From Bacteroidales bacterium (lineage in GTDB: Bacteria; Bacteroidota; Bacteroidia; Bacteroidales; UBA12170), in the NCBI GenBank assembly GCA_027858955.1, contig JAQIBR010000205.1, positions 3,845 to 67,844 of the forward strand: a stretch of 64,000 nucleotides of DNA, read 5' to 3'. The position numbers and the translations under genes are program-made. Below the pieces are notes generated by a model. The model saw only the letters and a program-made list of their open reading frames with translations. It had not been told where the DNA came from and did no database searches. Below, piece by piece: positions 3,601 through 22,719 of this stretch; position 1 is the first letter of the stretch; each line of letters begins with the position of its first letter.

Positions 3601-3948
3601 GGCTTAGGAATGGTCTTGGGTATTTTTGGTCTTGGATTGATTATGATGCGAAATATCGATTCCAGAAAAAGTGAGTATGCCTTCCTTATCGCAAATGGAT
3701 TTACAACCAAAAAGCTGAGGTTTATGGTTTATAAGGAATATTCGATGATACTTTTTGCAGGAATTATTACGGGCACTTTGCCTGCAATTATAGCCACACT
3801 GCCATCATTGCTAACAGGAGTTGAGATTCCCTGGACGCTTTTAGTTTCTATCATTTTAATAATTTCATTAACGGGAATAATTATCATTAAAATATCTGCC
3901 GATAGGCTAATAAAAAACGAGCTTATTGGATTGATTAGGAAAGATTGA
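682..3948 (+). CDS. Large FtsX/MacB-type ABC transporter permease (two FtsX domains, 1088 aa)
   Basis: N-terminal TM, large periplasmic domain, TM cluster, second periplasmic domain and C-terminal FtsX-like TMs (ERKxE-like motifs SRKKQ, SRKSE). It follows a LolD-like ATPase. Confidence 0.8.
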   Translation: MRKGILNTIFRSLIYYRAPLFFQFLITAFLAAIIAGSLLTGSSVRQTLKANTEKKLNNAGIVISSGLRYFNPELSEKLQQRINTSCVSILELKGFSSNFSTGESAINVQIFGVGVDFFSFNLNNSTKDIKPGEALINNKLAERLNINLGDEIIIRFENISNIPLNAPFAPEEDPTESIILTVGGIADDDSYDKFTLRISQLKPLNIFLNLSDLEDAFEGDIKVNRLLIESNTATSIESVENALREFLSLDDVGLQIRKIEDLNQYEIISERIFIDKDVIAEITNASPKATPLITYLANSIAVNGKATPYSFVSAIPVKLSSESPQGKNITINNWLAQDLNAKPGDTLVLNYYVSDSKNTISEESSKFIVDKIVNMENLWGDAMLMPEFPGISGTESCSNWDAGVAINFDNIRDKDEDYWNDFKGTPKAFINYTEGVKIWGNNFGPATALRFSDTSKEEVIADLSGMLNPGKLGFSITDSYADGIQAANSGVDFSTLFLSLSFFIIASAILLLSLLVSSFFESRKKQVKTLFSLGFKNNSIANMLLFETALISFIASLLGVFLGVLFNDIIIYALNSVWEGAVQTNTLSAYTDFGMLSIAFISTFLISLIVLFVKIKSFLRSLNDDKAKESNSRNVKYIQWLFPFSILLAILPFLATFIFPDKTTMLFFLGGSLVFINLLLFFRWIIRFSSPDSDESLISLKKYSWFYYAFYPSKALSPIIFIAAGLFIIIITGANRKSFDLDYLSNKSGTGGYMFWAETMSPIKENLNFPADRIKTGLDQDAFADLSFLQALKLEGDDASCLNLNQVAVPSVLGIDSDILAETESFSFAAVLEDLALANPWDALKIPAKENVIYGIADQTVLMWGLKMAIGDTLSIIAESGEALHIVFAGGLKPSVFQGSILIGRENFSRFMPSIAGSTLFLARGNPDKKEAYKVDLNNLFNSYGLHIEYTEDRLSSFYEVTNTYLTVFMTLGGLGMVLGIFGLGLIMMRNIDSRKSEYAFLIANGFTTKKLRFMVYKEYSMILFAGIITGTLPAIIATLPSLLTGVEIPWTLLVSIILIISLTGIIIIKISADRLIKNELIGLIRKD
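3847..3948 (+). repeat. Direct repeat copy 1 (last 102 bp of the permease gene)
   Basis: Gap-free alignment to 21322-21423 with 14 mismatches in 102 bp by manual count. Confidence 0.9.
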
Positions 3949-3967
3949 TAAAATGTGAGCGTTTTTT

Positions 3968-4060
3968 CTTTGAGCAACTCTGTGAGTTCTTTGAGAAGCT
4001 TTGTGTTACAGATTTTTAATGTAAAGTTTTGCCACAAAGTCGAACAGAGCATGCACAGAT
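3968..4060. repeat. Periodic inverted heptamer array (CTYTGWG x4, then MACARAK x3)
   Basis: Left heptamers at 3968, 3978, 3989, 3999 and right at 4033, 4043, 4054, with mirror spacing 10/11. Confidence 0.7.
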
Positions 4061-4076
4061 TAAAAATAATTGATTT

Positions 4077-4461
4077 TTATCTAAAATGAACCTCCATTTC
4101 TTTTAAGAAATCTTTATCAATCCTGCCTGCCGCTACATGGTAACTAATAGTTTCCATTTTGTATAAAAACCTTTGTGCAGCATCTAAATATCCATTTTTT
4201 AAGAGGAAAATACTTCCTAGAGAAATAGCAATCCGTTTGTTACCATCTTGAAAACAATGACTTTTATTTGCTGCAAAAAAAAAGATGGGTTAACTTGTCA
4301 ATAAAAGTTGGATAATATAGGTCATTTTGAACATGTTCAAGAGCTGCATCTAATGACCCGATATTTATAATACCAATAGCTCCACCTCCACTAATAGCAA
4401 TTGTCTTTTTGTGAATATTGATAACATCTTGTATGTCTGTAATGTAGATTATTGTATTCAT
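4077..4461 (-). pseudogene. Doc/Fic family toxin, frameshifted in a 9-nt homopolymer
   Basis: Removing one base from the A9 run at 4275-4283 joins the 65-aa ORF to FFAANKSHCFQDGNKRIAISLG...HFR* (stop 4077-4079), 127 aa in total. HxFxDGNKR is the Doc-type motif. Confidence 0.85.
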
Positions 4462-5461
4462 TCACTATCCTTTAACCTTTTAAAAACATCTTTAGCCTCT
4501 TCCAGTTGTTTTTCGAAATTCACACTTTGTTCTCCAAGGAATCTTTCAAAATCGGCAGGTGATATTGAATGTATATATTCTTCAAGTTTTTTATGGAATG
4601 CATCTCTAAAATGCAAATCTCTTGAAGCCATTTTAATTCGTGCATCTTCAATATGTGGACGTTGAAGTGGATGTTCCGAAAAATATATAAAAATCTCATC
4701 TATCTGGTGTGGTTGTAATTTGCGACCAACTTTCTTATAGCATTTTTCTATTTCGTATGCTATTCCTGTTTCAAATGAAGCAACTAGATTTAAAATCTCA
4801 GCATACATTGTATCACGTGCATTCTCTTTAGCTTCAAGTTTTAGTATTTGTTTGTACTCTTGGGCATTTTCTATAAATATGCTTTGGTAAATTTTATCAG
4901 TATATAAAGAATACTTATAATTTCCCATATCTACATATCTGCTTAATGTAGAGGTAAATTCTTTACGATACTTGCTTTCACGTATAGCTGTTGGTAAATA
5001 GTCTGAATCTTTCCGGTTTATATACTTTGTACCTCCACCTGTTCGGTCATTAATTGTTTCAATAACAATATCTAGCATTTTAGAGCGTAATAACTTGGCA
5101 TTATCACTTTCAGCTAAAAGCATTCCTAAATTCAAAAAAGCTCGAAAATTAAAAAGTCCAAGTTGGGTGGTTTTGCTCGGGACATTTATGACATGACCAA
5201 ATTGCAACTTTAAGTCTTTTAATTGTTTACCCTTACTTAAAATATATCCATTGTGTTTTAATTCGTGGTTATAATTCTCAAGATATCTTTTAATAGTTCT
5301 TTCATCAACCCCATAAAAGCCGCTACCATTTGAATGGTAAATTTATATTCTTCCTCAAATAACATTCCTGATAAACCTACATATTCTTGAATTTTTTCAA
5401 GTGCAAAACGGTTATTTAGAATATTTTGCCTGTCAATATTTGAATCTGTTAAGTTTTTCAT
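4458..5461 (-). pseudogene. Doc-associated DNA-binding protein (RhuM/KilA-like N-terminal HTH), frameshifted
   Basis: Adding one base to the A4 run at 5315-5318 fuses ORFs 5258-5461 and 4458-5207 (..VAAFYGVDERTIKRYLENYNHELKHNGY..), 334 aa. Its stop overlaps the doc start (ATGA). Confidence 0.8.
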
Positions 5462-5476
5462 TTTTTTACCTTTTTA

Positions 5477-5484
5477 CAAAGATA
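5477..5484 (-). promoter_or_regulatory. Bacteroidota sigma70 -7 element for the DNA-binding/doc pair
   Basis: TATCTTTG (TAnnTTTG) on the minus strand, 15 bp upstream of the ATG at 5461. Confidence 0.6.
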
Positions 5485-5554
5485 CTTATTTTGCACAATG
5501 CTCTTTTTTACAATGAGAGGTAAGTTACAGATATCATCTAGAGGAAAAACCTTC

Positions 5555-6259
5555 TTAAACAAACTTCTCTCGCCTCTGCAAATTAACCATACTGCCTAAA
5601 ATGGCGATAACTGAAACGATAATAAGCATCAATCGGTTTTGATTAATCACATTCTGCCAAACGGTATGACTTAAATTAGACGGTGTATTCAATGGATTTA
5701 AGAAGATATTCCATTTGCTATATTCCAGAGGTTCAGCAAGTATAAAAAAGAACAGTCCAATAATGACCATAATTACTGCTGTGGCATTGGCATTCTTTAC
5801 CCATGTGGAAAAGAAAAAGGCCACACCGGCAATAAATAGCAGGGGATACATCAATTGATAGCTCAAGTAAAAAACGTGAACTTTAACCAAGGCGAAAACG
5901 GCGAACCAACTCATTAAAAGCAAAATTACAAACAAGAGTAATAAGCTGATGGCAAAGCGGAGAAGATAGACTTTATAACGGTAGTTTGGAACCCCAAATA
6001 TTATTTCGAGCATCCTGGCATCTTTATCATTTTGGATGCTGAAAATCACCGGATAAAAGATGACTAATATTCCAGGGAACAGGATGGTATTGTAGATCTC
6101 AAATTCCTGGACAGCATCATCATCAAATAACATAATGCCTATAATCATTAAATAAAAGGCCACAGCTGCGATTAAGAAGTAAATAAACTTACTTCCGAAA
6201 ACAATTTTTAGATTGTAAATCAAAGCATCTTTTACCAAATGTAGTTTTTCAAGTTTCAT
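5555..6259 (-). CDS. ABC-2-type membrane protein (about 6 TM)
   Basis: Hydrophobic 234 aa with an ABC-2-like TM pattern. It starts 2 bp after the RND-ATPase fusion stop. Confidence 0.65.
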   Translation of the reverse strand: MKLEKLHLVKDALIYNLKIVFGSKFIYFLIAAVAFYLMIIGIMLFDDDAVQEFEIYNTILFPGILVIFYPVIFSIQNDKDARMLEIIFGVPNYRYKVYLLRFAISLLLLFVILLLMSWFAVFALVKVHVFYLSYQLMYPLLFIAGVAFFFSTWVKNANATAVIMVIIGLFFFILAEPLEYSKWNIFLNPLNTPSNLSHTVWQNVINQNRLMLIIVSVIAILGSMVNLQRREKFV

Positions 6260-6261
6260 AT

Positions 6262-9200
6262 CTACAAGCCCCTTTTATTTGTGTTTAATAAACTTAAATA
6301 GGCATCTTCAAGATTGGCTTTTACAGATTTCGCATCCGCTGATGGAGCCTCATCAGCTAAACATCTTATGCGAATCTGATCGCCATCGCGCATGTGATGA
6401 ATTATCTTTAGATTGTCTTTTATATCATCAAATTCATCAGCTGGAATAGTCATCATCCAAACTTTGCCATCGGCTTTACCGGCCATATGAATAGGAGCAC
6501 CTAAATATTTTAGTTCGCCTTCTTTAATGACTGCCACACGATTACAAGAAGAGGCAACATCTTCGATAATATGTGTGGAGAAGATGACAATTCTTTCCTT
6601 GCTTAGTTCCACCAATAAATTACGGAAACGGATTCTCTCTCTTGGATCTAATCCGGCAGTTGGTTCATCTACAACAAGGATTCGAGGAAGATTCAGTAGA
6701 ATCTGGGCAATCCCAATACGTTGTTTCATTCCCCCTGAAAAGGAGCCTATCTTTTCGTTCCGATTGTCGAACATATGTACCGATTTTAGCACATAATCAA
6801 TCCTTTTTGAACGTTCTTCTTCATTATAAAGCTTTTTCAGAATACCCATATAATGCAAGAAATCGATGGCTTTCATATTTTCATACATGCCAAATTCCTG
6901 AGGGAGGTAACCGATCAAACCTTGCAGCTCTTCTCGTTTTTCTGAAACATCGATTCCATTGATGGTAATCTGACCATAACTTTGTTCCAATATTCCACAG
7001 ACAATGCGCATAAGTGTAGATTTACCAGCACCATTTGGACCTAGCAAGCCAAACATTCCTTTTTCTATGGTAAAGGAAACTCCTTTAACAGCTTTAAAGG
7101 GGACTTTCTTTTTTCCAATAATGGGGATGATTTTTACAAAGCGATAAAACGCCTTTCGGATGCCTTTAAACTTTCCTTTTAAGCGATTGACATTTACTTT
7201 TTCTTTATAAATTTTATCCGATGTAACCTTAATTAAAATAGCCAAATACCAAAGGAATCCCATCGGAATGATTAATCCAATCAAATCGTATTTTGCATTG
7301 AATAGATAGAGTGCAAAAGCAGGAAATCCCCAGAAAAGCATTTTGTAAGTGAACATAAACAAGAGCCTGATGAGCTTTCGTTTTTCCAAATCTTTAAGAT
7401 GCTGCGCATAGTGCTTGAATGGCGTTAAAATGCTTATAATAATTATATAAAGGAATACCGGTAAGAGAAAAGACCACAATCCGCTTTCTAAATGAAAATA
7501 GATGAAATAGATGCCAAAGGCGATTAACGGAAGTTGCCATAAGACTTGCTCAAAATCATTGATAGACTTGACTTCGTGAACTATACCAAGTCGTTTTCTG
7601 ATATTAATACCTGATTTCCATTCTCGTGTAAATTGACTGTCCCAATCGTAAATCTTAACCAGATTCCGAATATTAATAACCAAATCTTCATCTTCTCCGA
7701 TTAGCTTTTCTGAAGCCTGACGCAAACTGGTTTGTATAAAATATATAGTAACCGGAACACCGATAAGCAATACCAAATAGTCGATGAGTTGCCAGATTAT
7801 TGAATCGACTTCGGTATAGATGAGGTAGCCAAATCCTATATAAAGTACGCTCAGGATCAGCTTATTAGGGATTGATAATCCTTTTATCCATGCTAGTGAG
7901 CTTTGTAATCCAGAATATAAAGTTGGAATAAAAACCAGAGTCAGTATGGTGCTGATTGTTAGTCCGCCGATAACTGTAATTGCAAACGGCACACCGATTT
8001 GAGTTACATATTCGGCTTTGCCGAGAGCTAAAGGAATCAAGGCAATAATGGTGGTAATTGCCGTAATTAATATCGGCCTAACGCGAGCCAGTCCTGCCAT
8101 CATCAATGACCGGGTCTCGGTATATCCGCGTTTTTGGAGTACACGTGCATAATCGATCATAATAATCCCGTTATTCACCACAATTCCAAGCAAAATGAGG
8201 AAGCCTGTCAGCACATTTGCATTCATTAAGGATGTGCCCGTTAAGACCAATAATACCAATGAACCGATTGCTGCCAAAGGAATGGAAAACATCATCACCA
8301 CTGGAATTGTAAAGGATTCAAAAACTGATGCGAGTATCATATAAATCAAAACAAAAGCCATAAAGAGTAAGAAGCCAAATTCCGCCAATTGATTATCTTC
8401 ATGCTCAACTTCGATGGCCATATTTGAAGGTAGTTTTATCTTTTCAATGGTTTCATCAATCTCTAAACGAGCCGCTTCTAACAAATCATTGTCATCCGAA
8501 ATTTCAGATAAAAAAGAATAGGATAGCGTAAGTTGTTTTTCTTGATTGCTTCGGCGGATAGTGGACAGCCCTTGTGTAAAATTAAAACGACTAATATCTT
8601 GCATCTCAAAAGAGGTGCCCTGAGTTCCGCGTATATCCAGTTTTCGAAGATCGTCAACATTTCGTTCTTCTTGTTTATCATTACCAATGGTTTTGATGCG
8701 GATATCATAATCTTCCGTTCCTTGTTTAAAGGTAACACCGGTGGAGAACTCATGCTGGAAGGAATTTAATTCCGACATTACATTAGCTAAAGGAATATCA
8801 TAGGCAGCTAATAATTGCTTATCCATGTTAAGCTGAAGCTCCGGTCTCTTGTTTGGAATTCGGATATTGATGCGATTGATCGATGATAATTGCTCAATAT
8901 AGTATTTAACATCATTGGCCAGATTTAGCATCTGATCAAAATCTTGTCCTTTAATAATGATACTTTCGTTTTGGGAGCCTATTCCAAGAATGCTTCCAAA
9001 GTCATCTGCTTCATCGAAGCCACCATTTCCAAACCGACCACCAGAAGTAGGAGGGTCCCAGCTAAAATCGGCTAGAGGTAAATCGTCTATTTTCTCAAGG
9101 ATTTCATTTTTAATGGAAGGAATAGAAGAATTCCGAATCCCCTTATAGTCTTTTAAAAGCTTGATAGTTAATATGGCTTCTCCTTCATAAACCTGACTTA

Positions 9201-10977
9201 CAACATTCTCTTTTTCTTCTATTTCAATAATTTTTTTCTCTGCTTCGCGAATGATTAAATCAGTATTTTCAAGGGTAGTACCACTAGGTAAGGTGGCATA
9301 AAGGGTTAAATCTCTAAGCTCTGCTTCCTGATTACTCACTGCACTCAATGAAATACTTAATAATAAGGTGACAAAGAATAAACCCAGAGCTCCCATTACC
9401 GTTTTCCCAGGATTACGCATGCAAGTTTTTAAAAAGACAAAATAGATCTGAATGAGACGGTTATGATGATCAATATTTTCAAAGCAGACTGGTTTTGTAT
9501 CTTTTTTCAGGACAAGGAAAAAGTGAGTAACCATAGGCACCAAAAATAAGGCGACGGCCAAGGATACTACTAAAGTCGAAATAATAGAAACGCCAATGTT
9601 TTTTCCTAATATTCCAACAAAGAAATTGGTTGAGAATACGAAGGGTAAAAAGACCATAATTGTGGTCAAAGTAGCAGCGAATATCGAACGCCAAACTTCC
9701 TTTGTTCCTTGAATTACCGCTTGATCAGGATGCATTTTTTTAGCAGCCAGCCTGTAGATGTTTTCCAGTACCACAACACTATTGTCAAGGAGCATTCCAA
9801 TGGCTAAAGCCATGCCTAAAAGCGTTAAACTATTCAGGCTGATTTCTGCTGCGTAAAAGAAGTTAAATGCAGTAAAAACGGAGATAGGTATAGCCAGCGC
9901 AATAGCAGTAACCAATCGGATGTTCCGCAGAAAAATCCACAAAATAAAAATAGCTAATATTCCTCCAACCATCGCCAATTGCATGATAAGATCGATATTG
10001 TTTTCCATGGTTTCGGCCGTATTGGTTTGAATAACCAATTCAACATCTTTGTCGGCCAAAGCTTTATTTAGTACTGCAATCTGTTCTTTTACATCATCGG
10101 CTAAATCGATGATATTTGATTGAGCATCTCGTGTAAGCTGTATCGTAACAGCATCCATTCCGTTAACCCTACTGTAGGAATCTTCTTCGATAACTCCAAA
10201 ATTAATTTCAGCAATATCTTTTAATCGGATGGATCCTTGTTCTTTAATAATCAATTCATAGATGTCGGTGATATCATCAAATTCAGAAACCACATTTACG
10301 AAATGCAATTGATTGTTTTTTGTGACTTTCCCGGTAAAGACCCTGGCTCTGCTATTACTATTTAAAGCTGTACGAACATCTGCGGGACTGATGTCGTAGG
10401 CTTCACAAACGTCTTCTTTAAGTGTAATTTCGATGGATTTGTCGCGACCCCCAAATACTTCAGCATTGGCAACCCCTTCAATATTCTTCAGTTTATTGAT
10501 GATTTCTTTTTCCACTACCTGACGAACCCGATCAACGCCACCACTGCCTCGAACCTGAAGACTCATAAACATATTGTTCAAAGTCTCCAAATCGAATTTG
10601 AAAACATTGACAATAAATTCTTCAGGGATATTCTTTTTGGTTTCATCAATCTTCTCTACCAATTTTAGATAGGCATATTTGATATTGGTAGACTGCCTGA
10701 AACTGATACGGATATTGCCGCTTTGTTGTCCTGCAGTGGATTCAATTTTTTCAACGCCTTCCAATCCCCCAATGGCTCCTTCCAGTGGGATGATTGCCTG
10801 GCTTTCCATATAGCGCGGATCAACCTCGAGACCGGTATTTACTTGCACAAACAACATCGGTAGGGTTGCGTTCGGGTACAACTCCACATCCAGCTGCTTA
10901 TAGGAAAAATACCCCAACATGGTCAATGCTGTGAAGACCATGAGAATTAGGGTTTTTCTTTTTATGATAAAGTTCAT
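6262..10977 (-). CDS. AcrB-family RND permease fused to a C-terminal ABC ATPase (1571 aa)
   Basis: RND motifs GMLLDNSVVVLENI, GIVVNNGIIMID and RVRPILITAITT are followed by GPNGAGKS, FSGGMKQR, ILVVDEPTAG and IFSTH. Confidence 0.9.
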   Translation of the reverse strand: MNFIIKRKTLILMVFTALTMLGYFSYKQLDVELYPNATLPMLFVQVNTGLEVDPRYMESQAIIPLEGAIGGLEGVEKIESTAGQQSGNIRISFRQSTNIKYAYLKLVEKIDETKKNIPEEFIVNVFKFDLETLNNMFMSLQVRGSGGVDRVRQVVEKEIINKLKNIEGVANAEVFGGRDKSIEITLKEDVCEAYDISPADVRTALNSNSRARVFTGKVTKNNQLHFVNVVSEFDDITDIYELIIKEQGSIRLKDIAEINFGVIEEDSYSRVNGMDAVTIQLTRDAQSNIIDLADDVKEQIAVLNKALADKDVELVIQTNTAETMENNIDLIMQLAMVGGILAIFILWIFLRNIRLVTAIALAIPISVFTAFNFFYAAEISLNSLTLLGMALAIGMLLDNSVVVLENIYRLAAKKMHPDQAVIQGTKEVWRSIFAATLTTIMVFLPFVFSTNFFVGILGKNIGVSIISTLVVSLAVALFLVPMVTHFFLVLKKDTKPVCFENIDHHNRLIQIYFVFLKTCMRNPGKTVMGALGLFFVTLLLSISLSAVSNQEAELRDLTLYATLPSGTTLENTDLIIREAEKKIIEIEEKENVVSQVYEGEAILTIKLLKDYKGIRNSSIPSIKNEILEKIDDLPLADFSWDPPTSGGRFGNGGFDEADDFGSILGIGSQNESIIIKGQDFDQMLNLANDVKYYIEQLSSINRINIRIPNKRPELQLNMDKQLLAAYDIPLANVMSELNSFQHEFSTGVTFKQGTEDYDIRIKTIGNDKQEERNVDDLRKLDIRGTQGTSFEMQDISRFNFTQGLSTIRRSNQEKQLTLSYSFLSEISDDNDLLEAARLEIDETIEKIKLPSNMAIEVEHEDNQLAEFGFLLFMAFVLIYMILASVFESFTIPVVMMFSIPLAAIGSLVLLVLTGTSLMNANVLTGFLILLGIVVNNGIIMIDYARVLQKRGYTETRSLMMAGLARVRPILITAITTIIALIPLALGKAEYVTQIGVPFAITVIGGLTISTILTLVFIPTLYSGLQSSLAWIKGLSIPNKLILSVLYIGFGYLIYTEVDSIIWQLIDYLVLLIGVPVTIYFIQTSLRQASEKLIGEDEDLVINIRNLVKIYDWDSQFTREWKSGINIRKRLGIVHEVKSINDFEQVLWQLPLIAFGIYFIYFHLESGLWSFLLPVFLYIIIISILTPFKHYAQHLKDLEKRKLIRLLFMFTYKMLFWGFPAFALYLFNAKYDLIGLIIPMGFLWYLAILIKVTSDKIYKEKVNVNRLKGKFKGIRKAFYRFVKIIPIIGKKKVPFKAVKGVSFTIEKGMFGLLGPNGAGKSTLMRIVCGILEQSYGQITINGIDVSEKREELQGLIGYLPQEFGMYENMKAIDFLHYMGILKKLYNEEERSKRIDYVLKSVHMFDNRNEKIGSFSGGMKQRIGIAQILLNLPRILVVDEPTAGLDPRERIRFRNLLVELSKERIVIFSTHIIEDVASSCNRVAVIKEGELKYLGAPIHMAGKADGKVWMMTIPADEFDDIKDNLKIIHHMRDGDQIRIRCLADEAPSADAKSVKANLEDAYLSLLNTNKRGL

Positions 10978-11010
10978 TTTCTAGACTTTAGATAACAGAT
11001 GTAAACATCT

Positions 11011-14000: not shown

Positions 14001-14118
14001 CGGGCAACAAATTGACGCTTAGCTTGCTGAATGAAATATAGCCAAGCAAAAGAATCGCTAGTACCATCATGGAGACCGTTACCGGATAATTGACAGAAAA
14101 TTGAGTTATCTTCTTCAT
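11011..14118 (-). CDS. AcrB/AcrD/AcrF-family RND permease
   Basis: 1035 aa with GMLVDNAIVVMENI, RIRPIFMTSVTT and GGLITSTLLTLVVIP. Confidence 0.92.
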   Translation of the reverse strand: MKKITQFSVNYPVTVSMMVLAILLLGYISFSKLSVNLLPEMNAPRIFVEINAGEQPPEEIEKQYIESIESQAIRQKGVIQVSSVCMVGSARVTVEYSWGTDMDEAFLDLQKAMTTYSQMSTIDEFTITQHDPNASPIMTIGMLNPTISDMDELRKVGENYIRNELIRLEGIAEVNLTGTEEKEVLIETEAYLLDAHGLSVNQVVSQIQNMNRSVSGGTVVEMGKKYIIKGSSLVEDLDALKNIIVSYKAPTASSSQSENQQATVADKVPVYLKDIAKVSFVNKDPKNIVRINGQRCVGLSIFKETGFNTVTAVKNLNEALIGISKALPGYQFITVQNQGDFIQKSIDEVEETALIGILIAVFVLFIFLRRIKVTLIIAFAIPISVIATFNLMYFNGLSLNIMTLGGLALGAGMLVDNAIVVMENIFRNMEQGMSVKEAAISGTAEVAGAITASTLTTIVVFLPIVYLHGASGALFKDQAWTVAFSLLASLFVAILVIPMLFNWAYRKKASKPNEIKSIRIGWYGKLLAKIIEQRVLVIIVALLMIGGTYAILPFVGSEYLPKSGTGEFSIEIKLKEGTQLQRTVSTTASIEYLITEALGENIDLVFSQIGPTDGTATDKSVFQNENTASIKVRLVKDAIEQSETIITSLSSLLENIPDAEIQIIRDETAIQSTMGTNEAPLLVEVKGDDLDILEEISNNIKNQLANIPELQNLETSIEEGAPEIDVVIDRQNAAMHNLTVDNISGQLKDLLMGKNAGKYEQSGEMNDITLRLPELTLYDFNNIQLRSGSNYVPLYELAHIEESVSPKQLHRRNQNRISKISADISQDIAFDQAIAKVDAIIGAMDIPQGYQVDVIGEEQKRQEAMSNLGFALILSIVLVYMVMASQFESLIHPFTILLTIPLAGVGAIWAFFLLGQSLNIMAFIGIIMLAGIAVNDSIILVDAINKFKAKGLSLKDAIINAGENRIRPIFMTSVTTILALLPLTIGFGDSVALRSPMAIAVIGGLITSTLLTLVVIPSVYYVFESTKDRFTKIDL

Positions 14119-14181
14119 GTAAAATTAATTTTTAATAAATAGGTGACATGAAACTTGAGTGCATAGTATTTCTTGTTCCGT

Positions 14182-15231
14182 TTATTTTACAATTTTAACT
14201 TTAGAGCGATCACGAAGGGTTTCAAATCCTTTGATAACCAAACGGTCGTTTTCGCTCAAGCCACTAATGACTTGAACATTATCAGGATTTTCCAAACCGA
14301 AAGTAATAATGCGTTCTTCGGCAAGTCCTTTGTTAATGACAAAAACAGTATTTCCTTTTTGTTTTGATAAGATGTATTCCTTTGGGATGACAATCGTATT
14401 TTCAGCTTTAGAAATTATGATTTCGCTCTTGGTAAACATGCCCGGCAATAGGATCAAATCTTTATTGCTTATGTTTAAAACGGCTTTGAATGAAAGTGTT
14501 TCCGGGTCGAAGGAAGGCGAGATTTGGGCGATTATTCCCTTTAGGGTATCGTCTGGTAAAGTGTAATTCATTATTCTTACTTCCTGCCCTGTATTAATTG
14601 TTTTAAAGTTTTTGCCAGCCAGGTTGACTTCCATAAATAATTCGCTGTAATCCATTATTTTAATAACGTCTTGACCAGTTGCGATTTGGGTTTTTGGTGT
14701 ATAATAGGGTAGCTCAACAATTACACCGGTAAATGGTGCTACAACTGCCATTTTCTCCAGCTGAATAAGTGCATTGTCTAAATTATTTTGAGCATTGATA
14801 TAGGCGATTTCGGAGTCTTTCACATCTTTTTGAGTTACTCCGCCTTTTTCGAAAAGTGATTTTTGTTTTTCGTAAACTTGTTTGCTGATATCTAAACTCA
14901 GTTTTAGGGAGTTATGTTTGATGTTGTTTAGGTATTCTTTATTTTCAACTAACAGAACCACATCATTTTCTTTCACTTTATCACCCAATGCATATTTTTT
15001 TCCGGTTGCGGGATTGATTTGTAAATTATATATACCGCTGATTTCTGTTTTTAAAGTGGTTTCCTTTAGCGGTTTCACGGTGCCTGTTGTGCTAATATAT
15101 TTTTCAATAGATTGCGGTTTAATTTCAAGCACAGAGACTGGTATTGAGATGTCTTTATTCAAATCTCGCTCATCATCATTGCAAGAACTGAATACCAGGA
15201 TGGCTACTAAAAATACGAAAAATCGTTTCAT
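14182..15231 (-). CDS. RND efflux periplasmic adaptor (MFP) lipoprotein
   Basis: Lipobox LVFSSC, lipoyl/hairpin pattern (VVAPFTGVIV) and C-terminal VISGLSENDRLVIKG. Likely start is ATG 15231; the ORF track gives 15261. Confidence 0.9.
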   Translation of the reverse strand: MKRFFVFLVAILVFSSCNDDERDLNKDISIPVSVLEIKPQSIEKYISTTGTVKPLKETTLKTEISGIYNLQINPATGKKYALGDKVKENDVVLLVENKEYLNNIKHNSLKLSLDISKQVYEKQKSLFEKGGVTQKDVKDSEIAYINAQNNLDNALIQLEKMAVVAPFTGVIVELPYYTPKTQIATGQDVIKIMDYSELFMEVNLAGKNFKTINTGQEVRIMNYTLPDDTLKGIIAQISPSFDPETLSFKAVLNISNKDLILLPGMFTKSEIIISKAENTIVIPKEYILSKQKGNTVFVINKGLAEERIITFGLENPDNVQVISGLSENDRLVIKGFETLRDRSKVKIVK

Positions 15232-15306
15232 GGTATTAAATTTATAAAGTGTGTATTTCATGATATTTTCTTTTATCGATTTGCTCTAATTAATAAAACT
15301 GTCAGC

Positions 15307-16809
15307 TTAATTATCTTCATTGATTGGACTGCTCATATTACTTTGTAACTCTTGTGAAATAAAAGAACGGTTATTTTCAAAATCCCAAAGCGATTGAATT
15401 TTAAGGTTCAATAATTCCAATTTATAATTGATTAAAGCATTGGCTCTGTTCATTTTCTTTTCGGATAACTGATTTTGGAAACGCTCCAAATCTATACTTG
15501 TTAAATCACCATTTCGAAAGCGTTCTAAATTGATATCGTAGGTCATTTCTGCGTTCCTTACATTTTGATCGGCTATTCCAATCTGACGAATTAAATTATT
15601 CAGATTGCGATATACTTTTCGAATATTGATGATGATATCATTTTCAAGATCTTTCAGATCAATTTTGGTAGATTCTAAGGAAAGCTCCGCTGCTTTAATT
15701 CTTGCTTTGCGTGCGCCCCAATCAAAAAGTGGGATAGAGAAAGTAATATTTGCCTGAGGGCTTTTGGTGGGTTTATCATAAACATCGGTTAAAACGGGAT
15801 CATTTCCCATCATTCCCATCGATAAGCTTACATCGCCTCTAAATTTATTATTCGCGCTAGTTTGAATTAAATCGAACTGAGCATAAGTAATGCTGATTTC
15901 TTTTTGTTGAAGTTCCAATCTTTGTTTTAATCCGTTCTCAACTGCCTGGTCAAGATTGACAGGGACTTCTTTGTATTGGATATCAGCAATCACTTCTATT
16001 TCTTCATTAAGTGAAATTCCTAATAACCTTTTAAAATCATCTTTAGAGTTTTCAAGCGCTACTTTCTGGTCTTCAAGATTTGAGCTCGATGTTGCATAAT
16101 TTAATTCTGCCTGAAATAATTCTTCTCTGGCCAATAGATCACCTTCAACTTTACTTTCCACAATACTTCTGCTTACTTTTTGATTTTCAAAGTCTTCAAT
16201 CGCAATTTGTAAGGACATTTGTTTTTGATAAATATCGTAAAATGCTTGAGAAACATATTTTTCCATATTCAACATTTCGATGGAATATGCTAACGTCGCA
16301 TTCTCTAGATTAAGTTGATTGCGCTCCAAGTTCATCTTTGTTTGATTGTAGACAAAGAGGGGTTGAACATACTGCAAATACAAATTATTACTAAAGCCTT
16401 TATCTGCAATTTCAATTCCACCCGTCCCTGAAACATTATCATAATATTCAAATCGATTGATGAGCGACAAAGTACCATCAAAAATTTTAATGGGTTGTGA
16501 AACAGATAATTGCCCTGATGATTTCATCGATTCGCTTGAATACCATGCTGACCTAAGCTCATCGTAAGAATCCTGATTTACATAAGAGAAAGGTGTAATA
16601 TCAAAGGCAAATCTCGATTTTAAAGAAGCAAGTTGCGCATTCAAAAGCTCTTTATTTTGCTCCATATTCAATCTGGAACGTTTAATATCCGGACTGTTTT
16701 CAAAAGCAATATCCAAAGCTTCTTCCAAAGTTACTTTTTGTTGCGAAAAGCCTGGAGCACTTAGGCCAGCAATCAAGCAGGTGATGAAGAGCAGTTTTGT
16801 GAATTTCAT
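15307..16809 (-). CDS. TolC-family outer membrane factor
   Basis: Signal peptide, SIPLFDWG motif and helical repeats, adjacent to the MFP and RND genes. Confidence 0.9.
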   Translation of the reverse strand: MKFTKLLFITCLIAGLSAPGFSQQKVTLEEALDIAFENSPDIKRSRLNMEQNKELLNAQLASLKSRFAFDITPFSYVNQDSYDELRSAWYSSESMKSSGQLSVSQPIKIFDGTLSLINRFEYYDNVSGTGGIEIADKGFSNNLYLQYVQPLFVYNQTKMNLERNQLNLENATLAYSIEMLNMEKYVSQAFYDIYQKQMSLQIAIEDFENQKVSRSIVESKVEGDLLAREELFQAELNYATSSSNLEDQKVALENSKDDFKRLLGISLNEEIEVIADIQYKEVPVNLDQAVENGLKQRLELQQKEISITYAQFDLIQTSANNKFRGDVSLSMGMMGNDPVLTDVYDKPTKSPQANITFSIPLFDWGARKARIKAAELSLESTKIDLKDLENDIIINIRKVYRNLNNLIRQIGIADQNVRNAEMTYDINLERFRNGDLTSIDLERFQNQLSEKKMNRANALINYKLELLNLKIQSLWDFENNRSFISQELQSNMSSPINEDN

Positions 16810-16834
16810 TGTGTATTATTTATATTGTTATCGT

Positions 16835-19800
16835 TTAATTCTTTATCCATTTAATAGCGTCGGCAGAAATCATCATGCCTTTTGATTTATTGGTCATATC
16901 AACAATTGATGTTTCGGGTGTAATGAAGAAAGTCCCCATATAATTCCATCCACTTTCTACATCTTTATCAAGTAATGTAATGTCTTCAATGCCATCTTCG
17001 TGATGTATTCTAAAATTGAAACTTGCATTGTTGTTTCTGCTTCTACCATTTCTCCTAAAACTAACATTTATCTTTTCGATGTGGCAATAGATATCGTAAT
17101 AAGCTGGTTCTGTTATTTCAGCATTCCAGGTCGCCGTTCTATTACCTTCTCCTGATGCAGTGTACAAAGCAGATCTAACATATTTACCGTAATATCCAGA
17201 TCGAACTACTGCGGTCCATCTTGATGGCGGACTCCACCAGCGAATTCCCTGGTATTTATAGCCTTCTTTTCTGCTCTTGTCAACTAAAGATTTTAAATAG
17301 CTGAGATTTAAATCCTCAAAATAGGTGAATCCTTCATCCTCATTGTCAACGATAATAGCATTTGGCTCATCTAAATTTGCAAAGAATTCAGTTGATCTTT
17401 TACCTTCAAAACCTTTTCCTTTACGAATATCATCACTACCCTCTAAGTCGTAAATCAGATTATTAGGAAGGTTCTCGGAAATGTGTGTAAAGAAATTAAT
17501 CCGAGTGGGCTCATTATTGAATATATAACCAAACTCAATAGCTTTTCCTGCAGGAATATGAATTTTTTGTGTGAAATCCGGAAGCACTTGATTGTCTTCA
17601 TTTCTAGTTTCTTGGTTTTCCATATCCGCAATGAAAGTAATGAGGCCATCAACAGGTTCTGGATTGGCAATTTTAAAAGTAACTTGATATTTGGTATAAT
17701 CTCCATCCATCACTTTAAAAGATTCAATATCCTTAATTAAAAAGCCAGGTAATTTTTTTGTTTCATACCAATCTGCTATTTCAGTTGTGATATTACTCTT
17801 GAATTGTTTTTCGAACACTTCATTTAAATCTTCAAAAGAATAGCTTTGATGCTGATGATTCTCAACAAATTGATTTAAGACGGCATTGAATTCAGCTGTT
17901 CCGTATCGGGCTCTGAATAAACTAAATAAATGATCTCCTTTTGCTTGTATGATATCGTTTAGGCTAATTTGTTCATCAAAATCAAGCGTTTTGTCACGTA
18001 TTTCTAATCCGGAAATAAGCAATTCCTGAAGTGAAGCATCTTTCAGCTCTAAATTAATACGCTCTCCTTTATTGATATCGGTAAAGAACCAGCGATAACT
18101 AGACACAACATTAGAATTCCGTTCTTTAAGATAAATACCTAGAGAAAGATCCAGCATAGGCCATTTTTCACTTCTCAATTGGCTAATAAAATTGTAATAA
18201 TTAGGAAATATAGTGAAGGAATTTCGATCCATTATTTCTTCATACTGGTACCATTCCTGATGATTTGCCATATAATTACCTCGGACAAATCGCTTGAAAA
18301 TTCTCTCTTGAATATCTTGTGGTGTTACTTCTTCATTATCCCTTTCCATACGTCTTTCGAATCGGATTTTACGACTTCTAAAATCAGTTTCTTCTAGGGT
18401 AACTCCTTTTTCAGGGTAAAAAATGATTTCGGGCTGTACCGCGTCGCTGGCAATGGAATATATGTGTTTATCCAAAGCAAAGTGTACTGGAACTTCTGCC
18501 ATAAACAAGCGTTTAAACGGGTAGGTCAGGCCAATGGCTGTTTCGTATTCATTCTTCAAATCGCGAATCATCCCCGGTAGGCTATCTGAAATATCCGTGA
18601 AGTGCTGTGTAAAGAATTCATTTCCCTTAATGGCATAAATTCCATATTCGATGGAGTCTACTGTTAGGCTGTATTTCTGATAATCGCCAATTAACAAACT
18701 AAGTTGCGTTAATGGAAATTCAGGTTCAAAAGTAAATTCGCCTGCTGCATCAGAACTCTGGGCGCCTTGTGAAATAGCCACCAGATTGTCGCTTGTAATT
18801 ACCTTAAGATTAAAATTTGTAAAATCCGGGGCGTAGTAAGCGGGCCTAACAGTTGTATAGCTTACACCTGCCGTTGGATACCATAGGGATTCCCTAGTTA
18901 AGCATACAAAGTCTTCGTTTAGATAGGCAAAGCGTTTACGGACTCTAAAGATTTCAATATTAAAATCGTTTTTAAATTCTTCGGGATCTAAATCAAGAAA
19001 ATGCGTGCGTTCATCAATACCTCCTTCGTAGTCGAAACTTAGTTCATGAGTGGATAGTTCGGAAATGGCATTTGGAAGAATTAAACGAATAAGATGCAAG
19101 TCTCGTACAAAATCAATCGCTTGATCATCGAGCTTTACAGCTCTTATTTTTAACAAGGGATTCAGATTGAAAATTAAAGTATCGATGATGGTCCCGGAAT
19201 TATTCTGTATAATTAAATCGGACTGCATCTGGATGCTTTCTCCTTTGTGGTTTAAAACGATAGTGTTTTCTATAACATCCACTTTGGTTTTGAAAGCATA
19301 TTGATTGTTCAGGGCAATCATTTCTTGCTTGAGCTCAATGGTATCTTCTTTTAAGCTGATATATTTGTTAATCAATACCCCACCGAATGCAAGGAAAATG
19401 ATACCTATAATAAGAGGAAGTGATGTTAGTTTTTTTGATTGAGGCAAGCGATTAATCTTGAATATGGTAATGAAGATCAATCCCAGGCCAAGAAAGAAAT
19501 AGATGCTTCTGTGAATCACGATTTCATTTAGGTTTCCAAAACCAGCAATTTCGGAATTCATCATGGGTACTGTATAGGCTATAAAATCGAATAAATGATA
19601 CAGTTTATTATTTAAATAGAAGATGGTTAATGCAATATAACCGAGCAGAATAATAAATGTAATGGCTTGATTTTTAAAAAGTATCATCATGCTGAAGGAC
19701 AATCCCAGAATAAAAACAAGTGTTGGCAAACTAATGAGTAGAGGGTATAAAAAGAGCTGACCTAATCCAAGGGAAGAATCACTTGCGAGAAAAGAAAACC

Positions 19801-20191
19801 CGATTCCCACCAATAAAAGGATAAGGTTGAGAATTATAAAAACATAAAGGATGCCTATTGATTTCCCAATGATATATTCTGCATTTGTCATTGAGCGTGC
19901 ATAAATAACTTCAACGGTATCGTTTTTGCGATCTTGCTTCAAAAATTCCGAAGCTAAAAATACAGCCACTATGGCTTGACCAAGATTTAAGATTAGAAGA
20001 TTTACATAAGCGATATTTCCCGGTAATGCTCTATACAACCATGGTGCACCGCTGGATTCGACAAAAATAGCTGCATTAAAAATACCTAAAAAGACAATGG
20101 AAAGCCCTGCAAAAATCCGAAAGAACCAGGAGCGGAGCAGGGTCTTCATCTCAAAGCGAGCAATCGTATTTATTTTTTTTATTGAGAGCAT
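16835..20191 (-). CDS. ABC-2 permease fused to a large extracytoplasmic region (M1-peptidase-like, no HExxH) and a C-terminal golvesin/xanthan-lyase-CBM-like module
   Basis: About 6 N-terminal TMs (EMKTLLRSWFFR..., DTVEVIYARSMTNAEYIIGK), then WYPTAG, then C-terminal YDIYCH...GWNYMGTF...ADAIKW. Domain names come from motif recognition. Confidence 0.65.
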   Translation of the reverse strand: MLSIKKINTIARFEMKTLLRSWFFRIFAGLSIVFLGIFNAAIFVESSGAPWLYRALPGNIAYVNLLILNLGQAIVAVFLASEFLKQDRKNDTVEVIYARSMTNAEYIIGKSIGILYVFIILNLILLLVGIGFSFLASDSSLGLGQLFLYPLLISLPTLVFILGLSFSMMILFKNQAITFIILLGYIALTIFYLNNKLYHLFDFIAYTVPMMNSEIAGFGNLNEIVIHRSIYFFLGLGLIFITIFKINRLPQSKKLTSLPLIIGIIFLAFGGVLINKYISLKEDTIELKQEMIALNNQYAFKTKVDVIENTIVLNHKGESIQMQSDLIIQNNSGTIIDTLIFNLNPLLKIRAVKLDDQAIDFVRDLHLIRLILPNAISELSTHELSFDYEGGIDERTHFLDLDPEEFKNDFNIEIFRVRKRFAYLNEDFVCLTRESLWYPTAGVSYTTVRPAYYAPDFTNFNLKVITSDNLVAISQGAQSSDAAGEFTFEPEFPLTQLSLLIGDYQKYSLTVDSIEYGIYAIKGNEFFTQHFTDISDSLPGMIRDLKNEYETAIGLTYPFKRLFMAEVPVHFALDKHIYSIASDAVQPEIIFYPEKGVTLEETDFRSRKIRFERRMERDNEEVTPQDIQERIFKRFVRGNYMANHQEWYQYEEIMDRNSFTIFPNYYNFISQLRSEKWPMLDLSLGIYLKERNSNVVSSYRWFFTDINKGERINLELKDASLQELLISGLEIRDKTLDFDEQISLNDIIQAKGDHLFSLFRARYGTAEFNAVLNQFVENHQHQSYSFEDLNEVFEKQFKSNITTEIADWYETKKLPGFLIKDIESFKVMDGDYTKYQVTFKIANPEPVDGLITFIADMENQETRNEDNQVLPDFTQKIHIPAGKAIEFGYIFNNEPTRINFFTHISENLPNNLIYDLEGSDDIRKGKGFEGKRSTEFFANLDEPNAIIVDNEDEGFTYFEDLNLSYLKSLVDKSRKEGYKYQGIRWWSPPSRWTAVVRSGYYGKYVRSALYTASGEGNRTATWNAEITEPAYYDIYCHIEKINVSFRRNGRSRNNNASFNFRIHHEDGIEDITLLDKDVESGWNYMGTFFITPETSIVDMTNKSKGMMISADAIKWIKN

Positions 20192-20218
20192 CTCTGGCTT
20201 GTATTTAATGTGCTAATT

Positions 20219-21103
20219 TTACTTGTGATTTGTTAAATGTTCCATATAATAGACATAGGCATGTTCAAGGTTTGGTTCGATCTCAATGGCATTGCTGGCT
20301 TCAATATTGTCGCCAACCAATTGAACTTCCCATCCATCCTCTGTCGGAATAGTTGAAATGACTGCGTATTTTTCTTTCAGCATATCGTATTCGTATCCAG
20401 AGGCTGTTACTTGCCAAACATGTCCTTTTGTTTTAGCAATAAGCTCTTCTGGAGAACCTGTAAACTCAACAAATCCGTTGTTCAATAAGGCCAGATTATT
20501 ACAGCCACTCGAAATATCGCCAACAATATGTGTTGATAAAACGATAATGACATCTTTCTGACTCAGTTCGGATAAAATATTACGAAATCGGATACGTTCT
20601 TCAGGATCGAGGCCTGTAGTTGGTTCATCGACGACGATAATTTTCGGATCTCCAATTAAAGCTTGAGCAATACCAAGTCGTCTTTTCATACCGCCTGAAA
20701 GATTGTTTGCATCACGATCGCGGAAATCAAATAAGCCAACTTTTTCCAGCCATTCATCAACTTTGGCTGATCGTACTTTTTTCTGATTCAGTCCGGAAAG
20801 TCCAGCAGCATAGTCTAAGAATTCCCAGGTTTTAAGTTTGGTGAAAAAGCGGAAGTCTTGAGGTAGATAGCCTAACATTTGCCGAATTTCCTTTCTATTT
20901 TTAATCAGATCGAAATTATCTATTTTTACACTTCCTGCGCTTGGCAAAAGCATAGTTACAAGTATGCGCATCAAACTAGATTTCCCTGCGCCATTTGGCC
21001 CTAATAACCCAAACATTCCACTGCCAATTTCCAGATTTATATCAGAAAGAGCTTTCTTGCCGTTGCTATAAACCTGACTTAAATTGTTAATTTCGATCTT
21101 CAT
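20219..21103 (-). CDS. ABC transporter ATP-binding protein
   Basis: GPNGAGKS, LSGGMKRR, IIVVDEPTTG, LSTH. Confidence 0.93.
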   Translation of the reverse strand: MKIEINNLSQVYSNGKKALSDINLEIGSGMFGLLGPNGAGKSSLMRILVTMLLPSAGSVKIDNFDLIKNRKEIRQMLGYLPQDFRFFTKLKTWEFLDYAAGLSGLNQKKVRSAKVDEWLEKVGLFDFRDRDANNLSGGMKRRLGIAQALIGDPKIIVVDEPTTGLDPEERIRFRNILSELSQKDVIIVLSTHIVGDISSGCNNLALLNNGFVEFTGSPEELIAKTKGHVWQVTASGYEYDMLKEKYAVISTIPTEDGWEVQLVGDNIEASNAIEIEPNLEHAYVYYMEHLTNHK

Positions 21104-21186
21104 GTATTCTATCGTAAGCGTTAAGTATACTGATTTTTAAGCGTTTAAAAAATAGGGTATTCTTCCTTTTAATCTCTGATGCATAT

Positions 21187-21213
21187 GACGTTTAAAAGGG
21201 GCGAAGGGTTACA
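21187..21213 (-). promoter_or_regulatory. Putative ECF-sigma promoter of the ABC/RND operon
   Basis: TGTAAC-N17-CGTC on the minus strand, about 85 bp upstream of the first ATG. Confidence 0.5.
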
Positions 21214-21321
21214 GAAATCCACTGATTAGATGAATTAGGAAAGTGCTAATTACGCTCGTGTTTTATGTCTTACATATAAAGAACCAAAGGTATGACTTTT
21301 GATTATTCATTGAGTTTTACC

Positions 21322-21423
21322 TCTATCATTTTAATAATTTCTCAAACCGGAATTATTATCATTAAAATATCAGCCGATAGACTGAACAAGAATGAACTTA
21401 TTGGATTGATAAGGAAAGATTGA
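21322..21423 (+). repeat. Direct repeat copy 2: orphan 3' end of the ABC permease gene
   Basis: Translates SIILIISQTGIIIIKISADRLNKNELIGLIRKD*, versus SIILIISLTGIIIIKISADRLIKNELIGLIRKD* in copy 1. Confidence 0.9.
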
Positions 21424-21488
21424 ACGTGAAGCCAACAATTATCTAACATCCTTATTACACTATGACTCCAATTTATGGCTGATTAAAA

Positions 21489-22697: not shown

Positions 22698-22719
22698 GGT
22701 TTTAAAATAAATTAGCGAA

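What the first reader, a model, noticed from the sequence alone, without database searches (positions are those of the whole stretch)
3847..21423. 17.4-kb block flanked by a diverged 102-bp duplication of a gene 3' end
The last 102 bp of the permease (3847-3948) recur gap-free at 21322-21423 with 14 mismatches. Of the 12 changed codons, 10 are synonymous (only L>Q and I>N change), and both copies end at the same TGA. The two copies therefore probably diverged as coding alleles in different lineages. This fits integration or recombination at a gene 3' end, where the incoming DNA supplies a replacement end and leaves the old end orphaned. The enclosed cargo is the Doc pair plus the ABC/RND operon, and no integrase is inside.
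Basis: partly seen in the sequence, partly recalled or inferred. Interest (0 to 1): 0.65.

Follow-up and report, generated by a model that had tools for sequence, protein, structure and literature searches.

The report
Orphaned permease gene end: recombination scar
A stray second copy of the last 102 bases of a transporter gene is real, but it is most likely an ordinary scar of DNA exchange or rearrangement between related bacteria, not the footprint of a mobile element that brought in the 17-kb efflux operon.

Summary
The 102-nt direct repeat (3847-3948 and 21322-21423) is exactly as described. It has 88/102 identity, no gaps and sharp edges. Eleven of 14 changes are at codon position 3 (dN/dS 0.04, dS 0.85).

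Copy B therefore evolved as part of a working permease gene. It is about as far from copy A as sister species are, and it was orphaned only recently.

The "cargo" reading fails.
- The seven-gene ABC/RND operon is conserved across the order.
- In a distant relative it lies in the same place and orientation right after the permease, with no permease orphan.
- The 64-kb window has no integrase, transposase or tRNA gene.
- Composition is uniform.
- No relative shows a permease-to-21424 empty site.

The break is on the operon's promoter side. The neighbour gene seen there in relatives (PQQ_2) is gone, and hydE, which follows hydF in relatives, is missing. An icd 3' fragment lies beyond the hyd cluster. 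In the relative, the same operon is bracketed by a diverged orphan of the PQQ_2 3' end.

Best explanation: integrase-free recombination between related lineages, either homology-facilitated illegitimate recombination or single crossover of a recircularised fragment. Which side came in is unresolved. This is a known kind of scar and of modest interest.

The parts
682..3948 (+). FtsX-type ABC permease (1088 aa), partner of the ABC ATPase at 2-565. Its upstream synteny is conserved in all close relatives.
   Evidence: Pfam FtsX E 2e-17. Orthologues at 83-70% aa identity with the same upstream genes.
3847..3948 (+). Copy A: the functional last 33 codons plus TGA of the permease.
3949..4070 (.). 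Conserved palindromic spacer after the permease, made of CTYTGWG / CACAAAG heptamers in helical phase. It is shared with L102 (93% over 58 nt) and L042.
   Evidence: No Rfam match.
4077..5461 (-). Doc-type toxin gene and its large partner gene, both frameshifted. L102 has only a 216-bp spacer at this position.
   Evidence: Fic motif piece E 8e-5. ORFs. An ~83% identical homologue at about 10-fold depth in the same metagenomes differs by single-base indels at 4275 and 5318/5321.
5462..5554 (-). Possible decayed remnant of the 3' end of a PQQ_2 gene, directly after the ABC-2 stop. It is weak here but clear at the same position in L102.
   Evidence: Window: 38-57 of 1000 shuffles reach its score. 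L102 13400-13459: 0 of 1000 shuffles, tblastn E 8e-4.
5555..21103 (-). Seven-gene efflux operon: ABC ATPase, 1118-aa Golvesin_C membrane protein, OEP, MFP, RND, RND-ABC fusion (1571 aa) and ABC-2 permease.
   Evidence: Pfam. The same gene order is seen in L103, L104 and L105.
21104..21225 (-). Promoter-side leader of the operon. It is alignable with relatives and contains the motif TGTAACCCTTCGCCCCTTTTAAACGTCATAT.
21226..21321 (.). Unassigned 96 bp between the conserved leader and copy B. The left joint lies at 21321/21322.
   Evidence: no similarity to PQQ_2 or to relatives.
21322..21423 (+). Copy B: orphaned last 33 codons plus TGA of a diverged permease allele. It is the tail of a 42-codon ORF starting at ATG 21295 (42 aa; JGI lists it as 43 residues).
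   Evidence: JGI annotation calls the small ORF as a gene.
21424..21488 (.). A 65-bp spacer that holds the second joint. Relatives start hydE 4 nt after hydF here.
21489..27974 (-). [FeFe]-hydrogenase cluster hydC-hydB-hydA-TM1266-hydG-hydF, lacking hydE.
   Evidence: Pfam. hydE follows hydF in L106-L109. No hydE was found in the window.
28358..29233 (+). Orphan 3' part of the monomeric isocitrate dehydrogenase gene, a further rearrangement scar bordering the hyd cluster.
   Evidence: Pfam IDH positions 446-734 of 734, E 9e-152. Stop codons lie upstream in frame.

Best explanation
Copy B is the stranded 3' end of a second, homeologous allele of the permease gene. It was left at a joint where two chromosome segments were brought together by recombination between related lineages, without a site-specific recombinase.

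The left segment runs from the upstream genes through the permease, the palindromic spacer, the efflux operon and its leader. It is collinear with a distant relative. The right segment is the hyd cluster.

Two routes are likely. One is homology-facilitated illegitimate recombination, where one end of incoming DNA from a related species is anchored by homology and the other end is joined illegitimately 102 bp inside the resident copy of the permease gene. The other is a single crossover of a recircularised chromosomal fragment. Either route duplicates the gene end and leaves one allele's end untranslated.

Shown here:
- The repeat is real.
- It diverged under coding constraint, to about species-level distance.
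- No recombinase gene is present in the window.
- The operon is conserved and sits in the same position in a relative.
- PQQ_2 and hydE are absent at the joint.
- A mirror-image orphan of PQQ_2 exists in the relative.

Inferred: the mechanism itself, and that DNA from another lineage was involved. Unresolved: whether the permease end plus operon came in (B would be the old resident end), or B plus the hyd cluster came in.
For: 1. dN/dS 0.04 and dS 0.85 between A and B. B is as far from A (85/99) as A is from the sister-species orthologues L101 (84/99) and L042 (82/99).
2. Polarising with L042, all three non-third-position changes (the two radical replacements) fall on B, and there are no indels or stops. 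This points to a short time as an orphan.
3. No integrase, transposase or tRNA gene in 64 kb, and uniform composition.
4. L102/L103 carries the permease, the palindromic spacer and the same operon in the same order, with no permease orphan.
5. In L102 the operon is bracketed by a PQQ_2 3' orphan and an intact PQQ_2. The orphan resembles the L042/L100 allele (0 of 1000 shuffles) and not its own genome's PQQ_2 (247 of 1000). This is the same kind of scar on the other side of the operon.
6. The gene after the permease differs in every relative (L100, L101, L042, L001, L064, L102), and the operon's upstream neighbour differs in L103, L104 and L105. Both borders are therefore recombination-prone.
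7. hydE is missing and an icd fragment lies next to the hyd cluster.
8. The literature documents both routes, including duplications of 109-950 bp of the homologous locus beside the insert (PMC3240628) and orphaned 3' regions attributed to HFIR (PMC5361080).
Against: - No donor or recipient lineage and no empty site was found. All relatives in hand are distant (whole-gene dS 1.1 or more).
- No recombination breakpoint is detectable inside the permease, although the star-like phylogeny leaves little power.
- Microhomology at the 21321/21322 joint is only a displaced TTTTA.
- Two joints lie within 170 bp (21321/2 and 21424-21488). This needs either two events or an earlier permease-hydF adjacency that no relative shows.
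Confidence: 0.55

Rival explanations
1. In-genome paralogue plus deletion. The ancestor carried a second ABC ATPase/permease operon next to hydF. A single illegitimate deletion, running from just beyond the efflux operon's leader to 102 bp before the paralogue's stop, removed PQQ_2, everything between, and most of the paralogue. No horizontal transfer is needed.
For: One event explains the left joint and the loss of PQQ_2. B evolved under coding constraint, as a working paralogue would. The own genome could not be searched.
Against: Each of the 56 genome and 37 metagenome loci with a relative of this permease comes from a different contig or assembly, and no genome shows two copies. No second permease-like contig at 80% or more was found in the three source metagenomes over 3000-3846. 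This rival does not explain the missing hydE. A paralogue kept at dS 0.85 with 94% aa identity would be unusual.
Confidence: 0.2
2. One reading: an integrative element, with its integrase lost or acting in trans, inserted into the permease 3' end. It supplied a replacement end (A) and carried the Doc pair and the efflux operon as cargo. B is then the old end (attR side).
For: Direct repeats of a gene end bracketing a block are the classic pattern (for example e14 and phage 21 in icd; own knowledge). A 20-nt identical run lies at the left edge of the repeat. Degraded Doc-type genes, typical of mobile DNA, lie just inside the left border.
Against: No integrase, excisionase, transfer or mobilisation gene in the block or anywhere in the window. 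The operon is vertically conserved across the order and sits at the same place in L102 without a permease orphan. The flank after copy A is ancestral. Composition is uniform. No empty site exists in relatives, and no alternative joints appear in the contigs of three metagenomes. The analogous scar in L102 uses a different gene (PQQ_2) and the other end of the operon, so there is no common attachment site.
Confidence: 0.1
3. B is kept because it now does something. It could be the tail of a small membrane protein (ORF from ATG 21295), or on the minus strand a terminator hairpin for the hyd operon.
For: The ORF is intact and was called as a gene in JGI assemblies. Two B-specific substitutions extend a hairpin at 21370-21385 on the minus strand, and a T-rich run follows it.
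Against: Both amino-acid changes put polar residues (Q, N) into the hydrophobic helix and tail. No orphan occurs in any relative. One terminator-like site is within shuffle expectation (0.4 +/- 0.7). The metatranscriptome runs of the same study hold none of the region's words.
Confidence: 0.05
4. Assembly chimera joining two organisms at a shared 102-bp sequence.
For: The source is a metagenome and the repeat could mislead an assembler.
Against: The two copies differ at 14 positions. Several independent assemblies give the same junctions, and single contigs span each of them at even depth of about 14-18.
Confidence: 0.02

Closest known systems
Homology-facilitated illegitimate recombination and single-crossover integration of recircularised fragments (Acinetobacter, S. 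pneumoniae, P. stutzeri and E. coli conjugation; PMC3240628; de Vries & Wackernagel 2002 and Prudhomme et al. 2002 as cited in PMC5361080)
   Same: No dedicated recombinase is needed. A homologous anchor gene lies beside non-homologous DNA. When the second joint falls inside the anchor, part of the anchor is duplicated next to the inserted DNA (109-950 bp in the E. coli study). The two copies are different alleles.
   Different: Here it is only inferred from a natural scar. Donor, recipient and anchor crossover are unknown. The segment is large (17 kb or the hyd side). A second joint lies 65-170 bp away.
Prophages and islands that integrate into the 3' end of a protein gene and regenerate it (e14 and phage 21 in E. 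coli icd; own knowledge)
   Same: An intact gene with one end, a block of DNA, then a diverged orphan copy of the same end in direct orientation.
   Different: No integrase, no att-like common core shared with the second scar, no phage or transfer genes, and the block is a conserved chromosomal operon present at this place in a relative.
C-terminal displacement arrays of rhs, CDI and T6SS effector genes (PMC5361080 and the works it cites)
   Same: Old 3' ends are pushed downstream and left as orphans after recombination anchored in the conserved 5' part.
   Different: Those genes have hypervariable toxic C-termini with immunity genes, and selection acts on the variation. Here the C-terminus is conserved (94% aa) and the gene is an ordinary transporter permease.

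Membership tests
Integrase-mediated integrative element with replacement gene end | Tyrosine or serine recombinase gene at or near one end of the element | tested here: not met
   Every sizeable ORF of the block and of the rest of the window was scanned against Pfam/NCBIfam. No integrase, transposase or relaxase was found.
Integrase-mediated integrative element with replacement gene end | Empty site in relatives (target gene joined to the DNA beyond the far repeat) | tested here: not met
   Relatives without the operon join the permease to PQQ_2 (L100, L042) or to other genes. None joins it to the hydF side. These relatives are distant.
Integrase-mediated integrative element with replacement gene end | Block is accessory or foreign (patchy distribution, own composition) | tested here: not met
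   The operon is conserved across the order, lies at the same position in L102, and GC is 0.34-0.40 as in the flanks.
Integrase-mediated integrative element with replacement gene end | Excised circular form or alternative junction in reads | tested here: inconclusive
   No alternative joints in Logan contigs of three metagenomes. Contigs drop rare variants, and raw reads were not available.
HFIR / homeologous single-crossover recombination scar | Partial direct duplication of a gene bordering non-homologous DNA, with the two copies being different alleles | tested here: met
   88/102 identity, dS 0.85, dN/dS 0.04. B is as distant from A as sister-species orthologues are.
HFIR / homeologous single-crossover recombination scar | Microhomology of a few bases at the illegitimate joint | tested here: inconclusive
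   Only a TTTTA lies 2-3 nt left of the 21321/21322 boundary in both copies. The parental sequences are unknown.
HFIR / homeologous single-crossover recombination scar | Homologous crossover (mosaic) in the anchor gene or upstream | tested here: inconclusive
   Sliding identity of the permease against five relatives shows no switch. The phylogeny is star-like and synonymous sites are near saturation.
HFIR / homeologous single-crossover recombination scar | Identified donor and recipient lineages | not testable with these tools
   No relative closer than 83% aa was found.
rhs/CDI/T6SS C-terminal displacement | Polymorphic toxin C-terminus with a cognate immunity gene after each orphan | tested here: not met
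   The gene is an FtsX permease with a conserved C-terminus. No ORF follows B before hydF.

The most novel reading that the evidence does not exclude
The efflux operon may be relocated repeatedly among related Marinilabiliales-like Bacteroidota by an integrase-free process that joins it inside the last ~100 bp of whichever convergent or neighbouring gene it lands beside. The two examples are 96 bp of PQQ_2 in L102 and 102 bp of the permease here. The similar orphan lengths, and the conserved palindromic heptamer array next to the permease end, could mean a directed mechanism such as a trans-acting recombinase or nuclease that recognises the palindrome, rather than chance illegitimate joints.
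Probability: 0.08. Interest if true: 0.6.

Novelty: new member of a known kind. Interest (0 to 1): 0.3.

Why it matters
The locus is a clean natural example of how recombination between related species reshuffles core operons and leaves datable fossils. dN/dS separates the time copy B spent as a gene from its time as a scar. It also shows that the pattern "diverged duplicated gene end plus block" is not enough to call a mobile element. Here the bracketed operon is ancestral and the rearranged DNA lies outside it. Practically, the joint removed hydE from the hydrogenase maturation cluster, which raises the question whether this organism still matures its [FeFe] hydrogenase.

Tried and rejected
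- Empty-site search. Permease orthologues with 10-kb flanks were fetched from genome contigs (56 loci), metagenome contigs (37 loci) and the closest Logan contigs. None joins the permease to the hydF side.
- B-type intact allele. No locus or protein has the B sequence, and contigs of three source metagenomes laid at 80% likeness show only the two known copies.
- Recent transfer from the L102 lineage. Rejected, because four-fold sites are saturated (0.27-0.43 identity) in flank and operon genes alike.
- Mosaic in the permease. None was detectable.
- hydE remnant in 21300-21495. None found.
- PQQ_2 remnant in 21104-21321. None found.
- Rfam and tRNA scans of both junction regions found nothing.
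- The palindromic spacer as a dispersed repeat. It occurs only at this locus in the sequences in hand.
- Expression of the small ORF. Metatranscriptomes of the same study hold none of the region's words.
- Two encoding-contig look-ups for HydF found nothing; the first used a wrongly trimmed reference.
The window's own genome could therefore not be searched for a paralogue, hydE, PQQ_2 or a full icd.
Full report
**Observation.** The last 102 nt of the permease gene (3847-3948) recur in direct orientation at 21322-21423.
- They align without gaps at 88/102 identity.
- The 14 mismatches fall in 12 codons: 10 synonymous, plus L>Q and I>N. Both copies end in TGA.
- Identity collapses immediately outside both edges.
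- A chance match of this quality is expected about 1e-25 times in the window.
- Eleven of the 14 changes are at third codon positions (P = 7e-4). By Nei-Gojobori, dS = 0.85, dN = 0.033 and dN/dS = 0.04.

**Anatomy.** The organism is a low-GC Bacteroidota close to Draconibacterium/Prolixibacteraceae-like MAGs. From left to right the region holds:
- an ABC ATPase (2-565) and a 1088-aa FtsX-type permease (682-3948);
- a 120-nt palindromic spacer;
- a frameshifted Doc-type toxin gene and its frameshifted partner (4077-5461; Fic motif piece E 8e-5);
- a seven-gene minus-strand operon at 5555-21103, comprising ABC ATPase, a 1118-aa Golvesin_C membrane protein, OEP, MFP, RND, a 1571-aa RND-ABC fusion and an ABC-2 permease;
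- a 385-bp spacer that holds copy B;
- hydF, hydG, a TM1266-like gene, hydA, hydB and hydC on the minus strand.

No integrase, transposase, relaxase or tRNA gene occurs anywhere in the 64 kb. Composition shows no step at either border. Copy B is the tail of a small ORF starting at ATG 21295, which JGI annotation called as a gene.

**Assembly.** Both junctions are reproduced at 99.9-100% identity in independent per-sample assemblies (Logan contigs and two JGI metagenomes). One 16,948-bp contig covers 5217-22164 and one 6,811-bp contig runs from the permease into the Doc region. Depth is even at about 14-18. No alternative joint appears in contigs of three saline-spring metagenomes. A chimera is excluded for practical purposes.

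**Relatives.** Orthologues of the permease at 83% (L100), 82% (L101), 80.5% (L042), 76% (L001) and 70-75% (L102) aa identity all share the upstream genes: Fer4_5, PQQ, NuoF-like, GltD-like, a 371-aa protein, a glycosyltransferase and the ABC ATPase. Downstream of the stop codon every relative differs.
- L100 and L042 have a convergent 451-aa PQQ_2 gene.
- L101 has an asparaginase gene.
- L001 has a 502-aa ORF.
- L064 has a LytTR two-component pair.
- L102/L103, two loci from one 60-kb contig (ERR14790501_933), carries the permease, the same palindromic spacer (93% identity over 58 nt), then the same seven-gene operon in the same orientation, then PQQ_2. It has no Doc pair and no permease orphan.

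The 1118-aa operon protein has homologues at 82, 80, 79 ... 55% identity throughout the order, including cultured Labilibaculum and Marinifilum. The operon keeps its gene order in L103, L104 and L105, each time with a different upstream neighbour. Between the window and L102, four-fold sites are saturated in flank and operon genes alike. The shared arrangement is therefore old and not a recent transfer.

The block is thus a conserved chromosomal operon in what looks like its ancestral place. Only the 1.4-kb Doc pair is clearly added. That pair has an ~83% identical homologue at ten-fold higher depth in the same community, differing by single-base indels at 4275 and 5318/5321.

**A second, mirror-image orphan.** In L102, directly after the ABC-2 stop, lies a decayed remnant of the last ~30 codons of PQQ_2. 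It reads SDVCIIIPVISENVAFFKTQK, against PLGDICMVSPAITENVIYFRTQK in the intact protein (tblastn E 8e-4; 0 of 1000 shuffles at both nucleotide and protein level). The intact PQQ_2 sits on the other side of the operon.

This remnant resembles the PQQ_2 alleles of L042 and L100 and not the PQQ_2 of its own genome (247 of 1000 shuffles). The same operon is therefore bracketed in another lineage by a diverged pair of ends of its other neighbour. At the same position the window has only a weak trace (38-57 of 1000 shuffles).

**The right-hand side.** In the closest hyd clusters (L106-L109; HydF 69-76%, HydA 87%) hydE starts 4 nt after hydF. In the window hydE is absent from that place and from all 64 kb, and no trace lies in the 65 bp between hydF and copy B. 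To the right of hydC lies only the last 289 codons of monomeric icd, preceded by in-frame stops. The operon leader is alignable with relatives for about 120 nt. After that come 96 unassignable bases and then copy B. The discontinuities are therefore concentrated at 21226-21488 and around the hyd cluster, not at the permease end.

**Dating the copies.**
- A and B differ by 14/99 coding nucleotides.
- A differs from L101 by 15/99 and from L042 by 17/99. B differs from L101 by 17/99.
- Whole-gene dS among these species is 1.1-1.6. In the last 33 codons it is 0.86-2.15.
- Polarised with L042, B carries 8 derived changes, including all three non-third-position changes. A carries 4, all at third positions.

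B was therefore part of a functional permease in a lineage about one species-distance from A. It has been non-coding only briefly: two radical replacements, no indel and no stop.

**Mechanism.** The best fit is recombination between related lineages without a dedicated recombinase. One route is homology-facilitated illegitimate recombination, with one end anchored in homologous sequence and the other joined illegitimately 102 bp inside the resident permease gene. The other route is a single crossover of a recircularised fragment. Both are documented experimentally. The E. coli study found duplications of 109-950 bp of the homologous locus beside the insert (PMC3240628). HFIR has been proposed for orphaned 3' regions in T6SS, rhs and CDI loci (PMC5361080).

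The polarity is open. In one version a relative's permease end, spacer and operon were added to a genome whose permease abutted hydF, so B is the old resident end. In the other, B came in with the hyd cluster and replaced PQQ_2.

The main rival is a lost in-genome paralogue truncated by one deletion. It is weakened because no assembly among 93 loci shows two copies, but it could not be tested on this genome. The integrative-element reading is disfavoured for five reasons: no recombinase gene, an ancestral operon, an ancestral flank after copy A, no empty site, and the different gene and different operon end used in L102.

**Limits.**
- No relative closer than 83% aa was available.
- Read evidence was contig-level only.
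- Notes from earlier scans describe many similar orphan-end scars in other genomes with the same explanation. These are unchecked AI notes and are used only as an indication that the pattern is common.

**Verdict.** The feature itself is an ordinary recombination scar of a known kind. The only unusual point is that the same operon carries such scars on opposite sides in two lineages.

Noticed in passing
window 21424-21488 and 21489-27974: The [FeFe]-hydrogenase maturation cluster lacks hydE. In the closest clusters (L106-L109) hydE starts 4 nt after hydF. No hydE was found anywhere in the 64-kb window.
   Followed up: partly
window 28358-29233 (+): Orphan 3' part of monomeric isocitrate dehydrogenase (Pfam IDH positions 446-734 of 734, E 9e-152), preceded by in-frame stops. 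It is a second stranded gene end bordering the hyd cluster.
   Followed up: partly
L102:13400-13459 (-), between the ABC-2 stop and the permease spacer: Decayed orphan of the PQQ_2 3' end, bracketing the same operon together with the intact PQQ_2 on the other side. It resembles the alleles of L042 and L100, not its own genome's PQQ_2.
   Followed up: yes
window 3949-4070; L102:13265-13395; L042:10440-10570: A ~100-nt palindromic array of heptamers (CTYTGWG on the left arm, CACAAAG on the right, about 10-11 nt apart) directly after the permease stop. It is 93% identical between the window and L102 although synonymous sites of the flanking genes are saturated. It folds as a long hairpin (L102 z = -3.8). 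No Rfam match, and it is not repeated elsewhere in the sequences in hand.
   Followed up: partly
window 4099-5523: The frameshifted Doc-type pair has an ~83% identical homologue at about ten-fold higher depth in the same three metagenomes. Its differences are mostly at third codon positions, with single-base indels at 4275 and 5318/5321. A more abundant community member probably carries the working version.
   Followed up: partly
window 6262-10977 (-): A 1571-aa fusion of a full RND (AcrB-type) transporter with a C-terminal ABC ATPase domain. It is conserved at 1556-1568 aa in L102, L104 and L105, inside an operon that also has a separate RND, MFP, OEP, ABC ATPase and ABC-2 permease.
   Followed up: no
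window 21370-21385 (-): Within copy B, two B-specific substitutions lengthen a hairpin on the minus strand that is followed by a T-rich run. It might act as a terminator for hydF. One such site is within chance expectation.
   Followed up: no
window 44987-45571 (+): A free-standing HNH_3/NUMOD4 homing-endonuclease-like gene among housekeeping genes. It is the only mobile-DNA-type nuclease in the window.
   Followed up: no
L060:5050-7674 (JGI 3300051638): In one JGI assembly of the same population the OEP and MFP genes are split by two indels (8 mismatches, 2 gaps over 11.6 kb). This is either strain variation or assembly error.
   Followed up: no
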